This document shows, in pieces, positions 19,206 through 20,318 of a DNA stretch of 64,000 nt. Origin of the DNA: an uncultured archaeon. GTDB lineage: Archaea > Asgardarchaeota > Lokiarchaeia > Sigyniarchaeales > SOKP01. Position 1 is the first letter of the stretch. Every line of letters begins with the position of its first letter. The stretch spans positions 32,001-96,000 of the forward strand of contig CAZALK010000011.1 in assembly GCA_964486045.1 (NCBI GenBank), in the 5' to 3' direction. Under the pieces are notes generated by a model. That model searched no databases and was not told the origin of the DNA. It worked only from the letters and a program-made list of their open reading frames with translations. The position numbers and the translations under genes were made by a program.

Positions 19206-19285
19206 AAATCCGTACCCGAGCAAGGCTTTCATCAAATAACTTTCCTTGGAGGGAATTTTTTTATTTGAATCATTAAAATAGATTT
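19206..19285 (-). promoter_or_regulatory. eukaryote-like (type II) SECIS element / K-turn in 3' UTR
   Basis: The minus strand reads UUUUA-AUGA-U-UCAAAUAA-AAAAA-UUCC-cuccaa-GGAA-AG-UUAUUUGA-U-GA-AAG. This gives an AUGA/GA core, an 8-bp helix II, unpaired apical As and a mini-stem; outer pairing is AAAUCU/GGAUUU. Confidence 0.72.
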
Positions 19286-19289
19286 TTTC

Positions 19290-20210
19290 TCAATCACAAT
19301 CTTCTGCTTGCTGCCGATTAATTTTTATAAATGCTTCTTCCTGTAGATTTCTTTGCACTGATTTAACCGATCTATTTACTTGGTTTAAATATCTCATTGC
19401 ATTAATCTTTCCATCTCTTATATTTTGAACGAGTTCTTCCCTGTTAAGACCACCAGAAATAACTAATGCCGTTTGAAAGGAGTTATCCGGCGCTAATGTT
19501 TTAAAATCAACTTGTAAAGCAGATAATATTTCTCCAGCTTCGCTATATAAGGTGTTAGACAGATTTAATCTTCCTAAATCAACTTTAAAATCTTTTGTTA
19601 AACAGGTTTCGAAAAAAGTAGATTTTGTGATGGGTGAAAACCCCCCATGTATCCCCGAATCATCGTATTGGTAAATTATATCATACTTTTCATCATATCC
19701 AGATAGATCATTATCATATCCTGAAAGACCATTAATATCGAAATCGAATATGAAATACATTGAGAAATCATTTAAGTCATAATCTGAAGTATTTTTTATT
19801 GTGAAAAAAGTATTAATGTACGGTACTTTTGGACGGTTAAAAATATCTATGAATAGTCGAACATATTCATTTTTTCTAAAAGTAATCGGTTTAAGCTTTT
19901 CTTCTTCAATCATCTTTTTTAAATACTCAGAGATATTAAAATCCAATGTTATTCGATTTATTGTAGAACCCATTCTAGTATTGACCATATTATAAATTGG
20001 TGTGGGCTCAATATTCTTTAACAAAACAGGAATTGTGCCAATTCTCTCATCTTCTAGTTTAAAACTAAACCATGGCCCTGCTAATTCTTGTTCAGCTAGA
20101 TATATTAAGTGTCTTTCGTCAAATTTTAATTCTTTTATTGAGAATCCCATAAGATACCCAGCAGCGTTTCAAGTGGCAAATATTTCATTGAATTGAACTT
20201 TTAATACAAT
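19290..20210 (-). CDS. hypothetical beta-rich protein, candidate selenoprotein (in-frame UGA at 20171-20169)
   Basis: The track ORF (ATG 20150) extends in frame through one TGA to ATT 20210, 10 nt behind GGAGG: MVLKVQFNEIFAT-U-NAAGYLMGFSI... A SECIS-like element lies immediately downstream. Confidence 0.7.
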
Positions 20211-20318
20211 CTTTTTTTAACCTCCTTTACACAATTTTGGTTTTTATTATTTAATTTTAGATTTTGCAACTAATATTAGAAAGAAGACAATTTGATAAAA
20301 ATATTTGTCTTAAAAGGA

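What the first reader, a model, noticed from the sequence alone, without database searches (positions are those of the whole stretch)
19206..20226. Candidate new selenoprotein family: in-frame UGA plus eukaryote-like type II SECIS
Seen: the 286-aa hypothetical ORF extends 20 codons upstream through a single TGA (20171-20169) to ATT 20210, which sits 10 nt behind a perfect GGAGG. The annotated ATG has no comparable SD. The extended N-terminus is MVLKVQFNEIFAT-U-NAAGYLMGF. 17 nt past the stop lies AUGA-U-UCAAAUAA-AAAAA-UUCC(loop)GGAA-AG-UUAUUUGA-U-GA: a tandem G.A K-turn core, helix II, unpaired As and an apical mini-stem. Established: Lokiarchaeota use 3'-UTR SECIS elements resembling eukaryotic ones; the archaeal selenoproteins I know are SelD, hydrogenase/Hdr/formate-dehydrogenase subunits and a few redox proteins. 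This protein resembles none of them. Its C-terminus ends ..EDCD-TGA, so the terminal Cys may be a resolving residue, or less likely the terminal UGA is also recoded (CxU).
Basis: partly seen in the sequence, partly recalled or inferred. Interest (0 to 1): 0.88.

Follow-up and report, generated by a model that had tools for sequence, protein, structure and literature searches.

The report
New Asgard selenoprotein gene with SECIS
The "286-aa hypothetical protein" is very probably a 306-residue selenoprotein of a family missing from published Asgard lists; it is read through a UGA at codon 14 with the help of a conserved 3'-UTR SECIS, and it matters as a widespread archaeal selenoprotein family that two dedicated surveys do not list.

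Summary
Observation confirmed and interpretation supported. On the minus strand, GGAGG (20225-20221) precedes ATT (20210) by 10 nt. The frame then runs through one TGA (20171-20169) into the annotated ORF.

- **TGA conserved:** about 120 related Asgard genomes align from residues 1-5 through exactly this TGA.
- **Cys homologs:** distant homologs start with ATG at the same column and carry C-x-x-C, with Cys under the Sec. Intermediate clades have C-x-x-U.
- **Coding signature:** the extension evolves as coding sequence (dN/dS 0.20).
- **Start:** ATA in 28 of 35 genes, ATT in 3, GTG in 3, ATG in 1. GGAGG lies upstream in 33 of 35.
- **SECIS:** the 3'-UTR element (19285-19206) is conserved with covariation. 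Its architecture also follows SelD, VhuD and Prx-like genes in this genome.
- **Sec machinery:** tRNA-Sec, SepSecS, a SelB-like factor, a PSTK-like gene and SelD are present.

The protein has no Pfam or NCBIfam family and is not thioredoxin-like. It models as a beta-supersandwich like the N-domains of GH15/GH94 enzymes, with an invariant C-terminal Cys, and it always follows a Roadblock-Ras GTPase gene. Published Asgard selenoproteomes list seven families, none of them this one. Recoding of the terminal UGA is rejected.

Side finding: five congeners carry a 28-32-nt bulge-helix-bulge-like insert right after the UGA. Selenium incorporation is untested.

The parts
20221..20225 (-). Shine-Dalgarno GGAGG(T), 10 nt upstream of the start codon
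   Evidence: GGAGG is present in 33 of 35 Sec-form homologs, 8-13 nt (mode 10) before the start column.
20208..20210 (-). Near-cognate start codon ATT
   Evidence: The same alignment column is ATA in 28 homologs, ATT in 3 and ATG in 1. It is ATG in the distant Cys forms. One genus uses GTG one codon later. In-frame TAA/TAG lies just upstream in 18 of 35.
20151..20210 (-). Unannotated N-terminal 20 codons, with the Sec codon at position 14
   Evidence: Conserved at protein level with synonymous third-position change. dN/dS is 0.195 and codon-position entropies are 0.77/0.29/1.32, against a flat 1.17/1.25/1.26 just upstream. It models as the first beta-strands of the fold.
20169..20171 (-). In-frame TGA read as selenocysteine (residue 14)
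   Evidence: The TGA is kept in about 120 related genomes. It aligns with the second Cys of C-x-x-C in distant homologs and forms C-x-x-U in two other clades.
19293..20210 (-). Full coding sequence, 306 residues; stop TGA at 19290-19292
   Evidence: The AlphaFold model has pLDDT 89.8 and pTM 0.89.
19296..19298 (-). Codon of the invariant C-terminal Cys (residue 305)
   Evidence: One of only two invariant Cys/Sec columns in 45 sequences spanning 23-100% identity.
19206..19285 (-). Whole SECIS element: closing helix I (19285-19280 with 19211-19206), core, helix II, apical part and side hairpin
   Evidence: The MFE fold reproduces it. In 34 homologs, 94.9% of cells are paired against 26-49% for slid controls, and 9 pairs have changes on both sides.
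19270..19273 (-). SECIS core, 5' side: AUGA
   Evidence: Invariant in 34 homologs. Same motif as in lokiSECIS (PMC4989117).
19229..19231 (-). SECIS core, 3' side: U-GA
   Evidence: GA is kept in 33 of 34 homologs (AA in one). The preceding base varies between U, G and C.
19232..19268 (-). Helix II (19268-19261 with 19239-19232) enclosing AAAAA, the 4-bp ministem with its 6-nt loop, and the unpaired AG
   Evidence: Compensatory changes C-G to U-A and A-U to U-A occur in helix II. The ministem sequence varies but stays paired.
19214..19226 (-). Side hairpin between the core and the 3' strand of helix I
   Evidence: All three counted pairs show changes on both sides (CG/GC, UA/CG, CG/UA). An equivalent hairpin is present in the SECIS elements behind SelD, VhuD and the Prx-like gene of this genome.
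20319..21302 (-). Upstream neighbour: Roadblock/LC7-Ras-family GTPase fusion, a conserved syntenic partner
   Evidence: Pfam Ras 4e-38, Robl_LC7 weak. It lies immediately upstream on the same strand in family f1 and in the Cys-form family f3.

Best explanation
This is a selenoprotein gene whose first 20 codons were missed by annotation.

**Translation.** It starts at a near-cognate AUU (AUA in most relatives), placed by a strong GGAGG Shine-Dalgarno. At codon 14 a UGA is decoded as selenocysteine by tRNA-Sec and the archaeal SelB-type factor. They are directed by a type II Loki/Asgard SECIS in the 3' UTR, which starts 5 nt after the stop codon. The SECIS has these parts:
- AUGA...GA core
- an 8-9-bp helix II
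- an unpaired A-run
- an apical ministem
- a closing helix with a side hairpin

**Product.** The 306-residue protein is a stand-alone beta-supersandwich. It carries an N-terminal (C)-x-x-U redox motif, which is C-x-x-C in the Cys forms, and an invariant penultimate Cys.

**Shown here:**
- conservation of the UGA
- Cys/Sec alignment
- coding signature of the extension
- start column
- SECIS conservation and covariation
- presence of the Sec machinery
- the fold
- synteny with the GTPase gene

**Inferred:** selenium is really inserted; Sec14 works as a redox or nucleophilic centre, possibly with Cys305; and the protein acts together with the Roadblock-Ras GTPase encoded just upstream.
For: 1. 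A six-frame search of 154 genomes of the order found 138 with a match. About 120 alignments run from query residues 1-5 to 307/308 with exactly one TGA inside, down to 40% identity. Distant ones (23-29% identity) have no stop.
2. N-termini show I-V-L-K-V-x-[FW]-[NH]-x-[IV]-x-[AT]-T-U-[ND]-x-x-G-Y in family f1. One further genus and family f4 have C-x-x-U. Family f3 has M-x4-D-Y-E-T-I-C-x-x-C-x-x-x-G-Y, with its ATG 13 codons before the Cys, the same distance as ATT to TGA here.
3. In the C-x-x-U clades the codon aligned with ATG 20150 is TTC or AGG, so no downstream start exists there.
4. The extension has dN/dS 0.195 (gene body 0.099) and a coding-type codon-position entropy. The region upstream of the start does not.
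5. Start and SD statistics: ATA 28, ATT 3, GTG 3, ATG 1; GGAGG in 33 of 35.
6. The 3'-UTR element is conserved in all Sec forms and absent from the Cys forms.
7. Elements of the same architecture lie 8-26 nt behind two SelD genes, three VhuD genes and a Prx-like gene of the same genome.
8. Sec machinery is present.
9. TGA is otherwise a normal stop, including for this gene itself. Homologs end in TAA, TAG or TGA.
Against: - There is no experimental evidence for selenium insertion, and no RNA data were found.
- The start codon is non-canonical (AUU/AUA), which is unusual. Initiation efficiency is unknown.
- Rfam's SECIS models do not score the element at E <= 10. Its folding energy is not better than shuffles.
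- A covariance model built from this family's elements recovered only itself strongly in the genome (87 bits; next hit 31.8 bits, E 0.12). Similarity to the other SECIS elements therefore rests on my descriptor and inspection.
- The model is least confident around Sec14 and at the C-terminus (pLDDT 59 and 54), so proximity of Sec14 and Cys305 is not established.
- The biochemical function is unknown.
Confidence: 0.88

Rival explanations
1. The 13-codon frame is a separate upstream ORF (leader peptide) that ends at UGA. The real protein starts at AUG 20150, and the 3' structure is a terminator or stability element.
For: In this genus an ATG lies 6 codons after the TGA, and all databases annotate 286-aa products. 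A weak AUU/AUA start would suit a regulatory uORF.
Against: The six codons between TGA and ATG are in frame and conserved, with Gly18 invariant and Tyr19 nearly so. Two clades have no ATG at that column. In the Cys forms the same residues are one continuous ORF from an ATG at the homologous start. The 3' element has the SECIS core and matches elements behind SelD and VhuD. The N-terminal strands are part of the modelled fold.
Confidence: 0.04
2. The UGA is read through without selenocysteine, by near-cognate Trp/Cys/Arg insertion or a local reassignment. The 3' element only stimulates read-through.
For: Comparative data cannot tell which residue is inserted.
Against: The position aligns only with Cys in homologs, inside a C-x-x-C/U motif. 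The genome encodes the complete Sec pathway. The 3' element is of the class found behind bona fide selenoprotein genes. TGA is used as an ordinary stop.
Confidence: 0.05
3. The gene carries a nonsense mutation or is a pseudogene, or the TGA is an assembly error. The upstream similarity is a relic.
For: None beyond the presence of a stop codon.
Against: The TGA is kept in about 120 genomes of some 20 genera, with purifying selection on both sides.
Confidence: 0.01

Closest known systems
lokiSECIS (Mariotti et al. 2016, PMC4989117) and the type II 'eSECIS-like' structures of Asgard selD genes (Huang et al. 2024, PMC11227280)
   Same: The element lies in the 3' UTR close to the stop. AUGA sits directly before the stem, which is 9 positions long counting the U.U next to the core. 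The first five apical nucleotides are A, and the last apical nucleotides are A-G. GA follows the stem. The apical ministem is as described for SPS/SelD.
   Different: It belongs to a gene outside the seven reported families. The apical region is 21 nt with a 4-bp ministem, whereas most non-SelD Loki elements are type I with an 11-nt loop. A closing helix plus a covarying side hairpin is prominent here. The sections of those papers that I read do not describe such a hairpin.
Eukaryotic type II SECIS (Rfam SECIS_1)
   Same: AUGA/GA tandem G.A core, unpaired adenines, apical ministem, 3'-UTR location.
   Different: Helix II is 8-9 bp, not the roughly 12-14 bp of eukaryotes (from memory). Rfam gave no hit at E <= 10. 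No SBP2 is known in Asgard archaea (PMC4989117).
Prx-like selenoproteins of Lokiarchaeia (UxxC/UxxU redox box)
   Same: Sec replaces a Cys of a C-x-x-C motif, and Cys-containing homologs exist in related genomes.
   Different: There is no thioredoxin fold and no Pfam domain. Here Sec replaces the second Cys, the motif sits at residues 11-14, and in this genus the first Cys is lost.
N-terminal beta-supersandwich domains of GH15 glucoamylase/glucodextranase, GH94 phosphorylases and GH116, and galactose mutarotase-like proteins
   Same: Same fold: VIA-align Z 18.4-20.8, rmsd 2.5-3.4 A over 214-237 residues; Foldseek E about 4e-8.
   Different: Only 9-14% sequence identity. No (alpha/alpha)6 catalytic domain is attached. 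It is a stand-alone protein with a helical tail. A shared fold says nothing about activity.
Bulge-helix-bulge introns of archaeal tRNA/rRNA, and the cbf5 mRNA intron of Crenarchaeota (from memory). This concerns the insert in five relatives, not the window.
   Same: A 4-bp central helix is flanked by two 3-nt bulges on opposite strands, with an inner hairpin. Cutting after the second bulge nucleotide restores the frame.
   Different: The outer helix is weak or interrupted. There is no RNA evidence. I know of no such intron reported in an Asgard protein-coding gene.

Membership tests
Selenoprotein gene (UGA = Sec) | In-frame UGA conserved among orthologs | tested here: met
   About 120 genomes align through exactly one TGA at this position. 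It is invariant in the 35 loci inspected.
Selenoprotein gene (UGA = Sec) | Cys-containing homologs with Cys aligned to the UGA | tested here: met
   Family f3 and database representatives have C-x-x-C with the second Cys under the Sec.
Selenoprotein gene (UGA = Sec) | Protein-level conservation on both sides of the UGA | tested here: met
   dN/dS 0.195 for the 18 flanking codons, with coding-type position entropies.
Selenoprotein gene (UGA = Sec) | Sec machinery in the same genome | tested here: met
   tRNA-Sec at 63.5 bits with anticodon TCA. SepSecS at 390 bits. Two SelD genes with in-frame TGA. A PSTK-like gene at 141 bits, below the curated cut-off. A SelB-like factor at 231 bits beside tRNA-Sec, just below the bacterial cut-off.
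Selenoprotein gene (UGA = Sec) | Selenium demonstrably incorporated | not testable with these tools
   Needs 75Se labelling or mass spectrometry.
lokiSECIS / Asgard eSECIS-like, type II | AUGA before the stem and GA (or AA) after it | tested here: met
   AUGA is invariant. GA is kept in 33 of 34 homologs and is AA in one.
lokiSECIS / Asgard eSECIS-like, type II | Stem of about 9 bp, A-rich start of the apical region, A-G at its end, apical ministem | tested here: met
   U.U plus 8 bp, then AAAAA, a 4-bp ministem and AG. Helix II is 98.9% paired with compensatory changes.
lokiSECIS / Asgard eSECIS-like, type II | Same class as elements behind known selenoprotein genes of the organism | tested here: met
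   A descriptor scan plus inspection finds the same architecture behind SelD (2), VhuD (3) and a Prx-like gene. The family-specific covariance model did not cross-detect them.
Eukaryotic SECIS (Rfam SECIS_1) | Scores with the curated covariance model | tested here: not met
   No SECIS hit at E <= 10 in 18500-21000. Mariotti et al. likewise report that standard tools miss Loki elements (PMC4989117).
Published Asgard selenoprotein families (SelD, FrhA/VhuU, FrhD/VhuD, HdrA, Prx-like, AhpF-N homolog, DsbA-like) | Sequence or fold membership in one of them | tested here: not met
   No Pfam family and no NCBIfam family. The fold is a supersandwich, not thioredoxin-like or any of the others.
GH15/GH94-type N-terminal supersandwich (galactose mutarotase-like fold) | Structural superposition over the whole domain | tested here: met
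   Z 18.4-20.8 over 214-237 residues for the best eleven chains. This is fold level only; there is no sequence-family match.
Bulge-helix-bulge intron (insert in relatives L054-L058) | 4-bp helix flanked by two 3-nt bulges on opposite strands, with cleavage restoring the frame | tested here: inconclusive
   CUUG/CAAG with an AAU bulge and an AAA/AAC/AUA bulge. The canonical cut gives ACU UGA AAY in frame in all five. The outer helix is weak, L054 has a competing fold, and there is no RNA evidence.

The most novel reading that the evidence does not exclude
Beyond being a new selenoprotein family, the locus may show three linked novelties.

1. Obligatory near-cognate AUA/AUU initiation, conserved across a whole family of Asgard archaea on a gene whose Sec codon lies only 13 codons downstream.
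2. In some congeners, a 28-32-nt bulge-helix-bulge mini-intron inside the mRNA immediately 3' of the Sec codon. If so, tRNA-type splicing is needed to make the selenoprotein.
3. A selenol-based redox switch on a supersandwich protein that partners with a Roadblock-Ras GTPase. This would link redox or selenium status to eukaryote-like small-GTPase signalling in Asgard archaea.
Probability: 0.25. Interest if true: 0.85.

Novelty: new member of a known kind. Interest (0 to 1): 0.66.

Why it matters
Published Asgard selenoproteomes list seven families. The largest survey looked only for homologs of known families (PMC11227280), and the 2016 study reported five families in Lokiarchaeota (PMC4989117).

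- **A new family.** A family with a conserved Sec in about 120 genomes of this order, no known domain and a non-thioredoxin fold would enlarge the archaeal selenoproteome. It also shows that homology-only searches miss families.
- **A large SECIS data set.** The gene supplies a well-sampled type II SECIS (34 aligned elements here) with clear covariation, including a closing helix and a side hairpin. This could improve Asgard SECIS models, which bear on the archaeal origin of the eukaryotic SECIS.
- **Annotation fix.** About 390 database entries are annotated 20 residues too short and lack their likely active-site residue.
- **Lead on function.** Strict synteny with a Roadblock-Ras GTPase gives a testable lead on Asgard small-GTPase biology.

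Tried and rejected
- **Rfam scan of 18500-21000 at E <= 10:** no SECIS family. This is expected for Loki elements.
- **Single-sequence folding statistics:** z about -0.2, uninformative in AT-rich sequence.
- **Covariance model R1 from the 34 elements, searched on the whole genome:** itself at 87 bits, then 31.8 bits (E 0.12) and 25 bits. Only 150 of about 13,000 first-look candidates were scored. The model was too family-specific to serve as a general SECIS detector.
- **tRNA-Sec presence as a discriminator between Sec-form and Cys-form genomes:** all five genomes tested have it, so it does not discriminate.
- **Terminal UGA recoded (C-x-U at the C-terminus):** rejected. Homologs end in TAA or TAG in 30 of 35.
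- **Thioredoxin or Rdx-like fold for the N-terminal C-x-x-U:** rejected by the model.
- **Complex prediction, second submission:** the Roadblock-Ras GTPase with the 286-aa code-11 product, using database homologs, returned no verdict (score 0.00). This is no evidence either way.
- **RNA evidence:** no RNA holder was listed for the window gene or for an insert-bearing relative. DNA holders are marine-sediment metagenomes.
- **Fold search 'atlas':** failed twice.
- **Distant HMM matches:** these cover profile positions about 125-270 in large PKD/dockerin/transglutaminase proteins. Pfam scans of ten of them gave no family on the matched stretch, so there is no functional lead.
- **Insert in relatives as a mobile repeat:** rejected, because it is single-copy in each genome.
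- **Insert rescued by frameshifting or a hop:** rejected. Lengths of 28, 29, 31, 31 and 32 nt give no common frame, and there is no matching landing codon.
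Full report
**1. The observation**

- GGAGG lies at 20225-20221. An in-frame TAA (20219-20217) follows, and then ATT at 20210.
- Thirteen sense codons follow the ATT codon's position, then TGA at 20171-20169, six more codons, and the annotated ATG at 20150.
- No ATG, GTG or TTG lies in the extension.
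- The ORF ends D-C-D-TGA (stop 19292-19290).
- Sixteen nt later comes AUGA (19273-19270). It is followed by U, an 8-bp helix, AAAAA, a 4-bp ministem with a 6-nt loop, AG, the return strand, and U-GA.
- RNAfold reproduces this. It adds a 6-bp closing helix (19285-19280 with 19211-19206) and a 4-bp side hairpin (19226-19223 with 19217-19214).

Taken alone, none of this is statistically remarkable.
- The fold is no more stable than shuffles (z -0.2).
- Rfam finds no SECIS.
- A loose descriptor of this shape hits 388 places in the genome.

**2. The organism uses selenocysteine**

The window lies in a 5.18-Mb, 31% GC assembly. The neighbouring gene is a Roadblock-Ras GTPase fusion, and database relatives are labelled Promethearchaeota or Lokiarchaeia. 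The genome encodes:
- a tRNA-Sec with anticodon TCA;
- SepSecS next to it;
- a SelB-like elongation factor 4 kb away (231 bits);
- a PSTK-like gene;
- two SelD genes that themselves contain in-frame TGA.

**3. Homologs keep the UGA, or have Cys there**

A six-frame search with the extended protein was run in 154 genomes of the same order, and 138 had a match.
- About 120 alignments run from query residues 1-5 to 307/308 with exactly one TGA inside, down to 40% identity.
- Distant homologs (23-29% identity) align from residues 1-7 without a stop.

I fetched 50 loci and read the N-termini.
- **Family f1 (this genus and relatives):** I-V-L-K-V-x-[FW]-[NH]-x-[IV]-x-[AT]-T-U-[ND]-x-x-G-Y-x-M-G-F.
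- **One further genus and family f4:** C-x-x-U.
- **Family f3, including three closed genomes:** M-x4-D-Y-E-T-I-C-x-x-C-x-x-x-G-Y. The second Cys aligns with Sec.

In a 45-sequence alignment the only invariant Cys/Sec columns are residue 14 and the penultimate Cys305.

In the C-x-x-U clades the codon under ATG 20150 is TTC or AGG. A downstream start is therefore not available there.

Database representatives of the Cys forms are annotated from that N-terminal Met. The Sec forms are all annotated 20 residues short.

**4. The extension is coding**

Across 33 f1 genes, the 18 codons flanking the TGA have dN/dS 0.195, against 0.099 for the gene body. Codon-position entropies are 0.77/0.29/1.32. 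The 18 codons upstream of the start are flat at 1.17/1.25/1.26.

**5. Start codon**
- The start column is ATA in 28 of 35 Sec-form genes, ATT in 3 (including this one) and ATG in 1. One genus uses GTG one codon later.
- The Cys forms have ATG at the same distance, 13 codons, from the Cys.
- GGAGG lies 8-13 nt upstream (mode 10) in 33 of 35.
- In 18 of 35 an in-frame stop lies within seven codons upstream.
- Initiation at a near-cognate AUA/AUU is therefore the only reading that fits. That it works is inferred, not shown.

**6. The 3'-UTR element is a SECIS**

All Sec-form f1 genes carry a conserved element of about 80 nt, 5-30 nt after the stop. The Cys forms do not.

On 34 aligned elements the four-helix structure gives:
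- 94.9% of cells paired, against 26-49% when the partners are slid;
- 9 pairs with changes on both sides;
- 0 of 500 shuffles reaching the observed covariation.

Conserved positions: AUGA is invariant; GA is kept in 33 of 34; the base before GA varies; the apical region begins with an A-run and ends A-G.

These are the features that define lokiSECIS (PMC4989117). The ministem makes it the type II form described mainly for selD (PMC11227280).

A descriptor scan of the whole genome, filtered for these features, returned 25 elements. Those with the same full architecture (closing helix, core, 8-9-bp helix, A-rich loop ending in G, side hairpin) lie 8-26 nt behind two SelD genes, three VhuD-type genes and a Prx-like gene. 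All of these have in-frame TGA.

A covariance model built only from this family's elements was too specific to cross-detect them.

**7. What the protein is**
- It matches no Pfam or NCBIfam family.
- The AlphaFold model is confident (pLDDT 89.8, pTM 0.89) and mostly beta, with a C-terminal helical tail.
- It superposes on the N-terminal supersandwich domains of GH15, GH94 and GH116 enzymes at Z 18.4-20.8. It superposes on galactose mutarotase-like proteins at Z 12-13.
- It is thus a stand-alone supersandwich, not a thioredoxin-fold protein.
- The N-terminal extension forms the first strands of the fold.
- Confidence is lowest around Sec14 and Cys305, so their proximity is not established.
- An HMM search of 1.8 billion representatives found only a handful of full-length relatives, all of similar size. 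It also found a shared sub-domain in large surface proteins, which gave no functional lead.
- The Roadblock-Ras GTPase gene lies immediately upstream on the same strand in family f1 and in the Cys-form family f3, at 42-86% GTPase identity. This argues for a functional link. Binding was not established.

**8. Mechanism proposed**
- *Shown:* a conserved in-frame UGA aligned with Cys; a coding extension; a conserved start column and SD; a covarying SECIS of the organism's own class; and the Sec machinery.
- *Inferred:* SelB and Sec-tRNA decode UGA14 under direction of the 3' SECIS. Sec14 is a redox or nucleophilic centre, ancestrally paired with the Cys three residues upstream. In this genus, which lost that Cys, it may pair with the invariant Cys305. 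The protein works with the neighbouring GTPase.

**9. Prior knowledge**
- Mariotti et al. 2016 found five families in Lokiarchaeota.
- Huang et al. 2024 found seven in more than 400 Asgard genomes, using homology to known families only.
- A 2026 review repeats that list (PMC4989117, PMC11227280, PMC13188914).
- Sun et al. 2021 report HdrA, Prx and MvhD only (PMC9723677).

None of these describes this family. I therefore rate it a new family using a known recoding mechanism.

**10. Side finding in relatives**

In five genomes of the same genus, a 28-32-nt insert lies exactly after the TGA.
- Its lengths (28, 29, 31, 31, 32 nt) break the frame.
- Yet the SD, the AUA start, the 13 N-terminal codons and an intact SECIS are all retained.
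- The insert folds as a 4-bp helix (CUUG/CAAG) flanked by 3-nt bulges on opposite strands, plus an inner hairpin.
- Cutting after the second bulge nucleotide, as in tRNA introns (rule recalled from memory), restores ACU UGA AAY in frame in all five.
- The insert is single-copy per genome and patchy on the gene tree, which has low support.
- A bulge-helix-bulge mini-intron is my best guess (about 0.4). No RNA data were available.

**11. Earlier notes of this scan**

The scan had already flagged this stretch from another window (e1-5505432). It had also flagged the Sec machinery cluster and Prx-like selenoproteins with a side-hairpin SECIS elsewhere in this genome. My tests agree with those notes where they overlap.

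Noticed in passing
L054-L058 (genomes G059, G097, G063, G066, G088), directly 3' of the Sec codon of the orthologous gene: A 28-32-nt structured insert breaks the frame. The SD, the AUA start, the N-terminal codons and the 3' SECIS are all kept. Its geometry fits a bulge-helix-bulge motif, and the canonical cut restores the frame in all five. It is a candidate mRNA mini-intron.
   Followed up: partly
window 20319-21302 (-): A Roadblock/LC7-Ras-family GTPase fusion lies immediately upstream of the selenoprotein gene. The pairing is conserved across family f1 and the Cys-form family f3, so the two genes form a conserved pair.
   Followed up: partly
window 12221-19144 (+): A giant 2307-aa ORF with DUF2341 and LamG-like domains and a C-terminal cytoplasmic-looking part converges on the selenoprotein gene. 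Its C-terminal region is syntenic in many genomes of the genus.
   Followed up: no
same genome, outside the window: C11:149133-149390 (+), C3:142679-142924 (+), C35:3559-3783 (+), C25:38547-39038 (+): Small ORFs with one to four in-frame TGA lie directly upstream of SECIS elements of the same architecture. One is an 86-aa Cys-rich ORF with four TGA. They may be further unlisted selenoproteins.
   Followed up: no
SECIS elements of this genome (C1:757668, C1:759918, C3:142939, C3:237468-237502, C7:190155-190189, C12:151504, C35:3783) and window 19206-19285: Many SECIS elements here share an extended architecture: a closing helix, plus a short GC-rich side hairpin between the GA and the 3' strand of the closing helix. 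This goes beyond the stem-loop of the published lokiSECIS model.
   Followed up: partly
L044-L046 (family f4 homologs with C-x-x-U): Their 3' UTRs lack the AUGA-type element. They share a different GC-rich hairpin (CCCAAG...CUUGGG) about 12 nt after the stop. I did not identify the SECIS type of this clade.
   Followed up: no
window 20208-20210 and homologous loci: A near-cognate start (ATA or ATT) is conserved in 31 of 35 Sec-form genes behind a strong GGAGG. The Cys forms use ATG. This may be tuning of initiation for a Sec codon 13 codons downstream.
   Followed up: partly
window 21711-22283 (-): An ORF that looks like HisB (imidazoleglycerol-phosphate dehydratase) lies upstream of the GTPase gene. 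It is probably unrelated housekeeping context. The identification is by eye from the translation.
   Followed up: no
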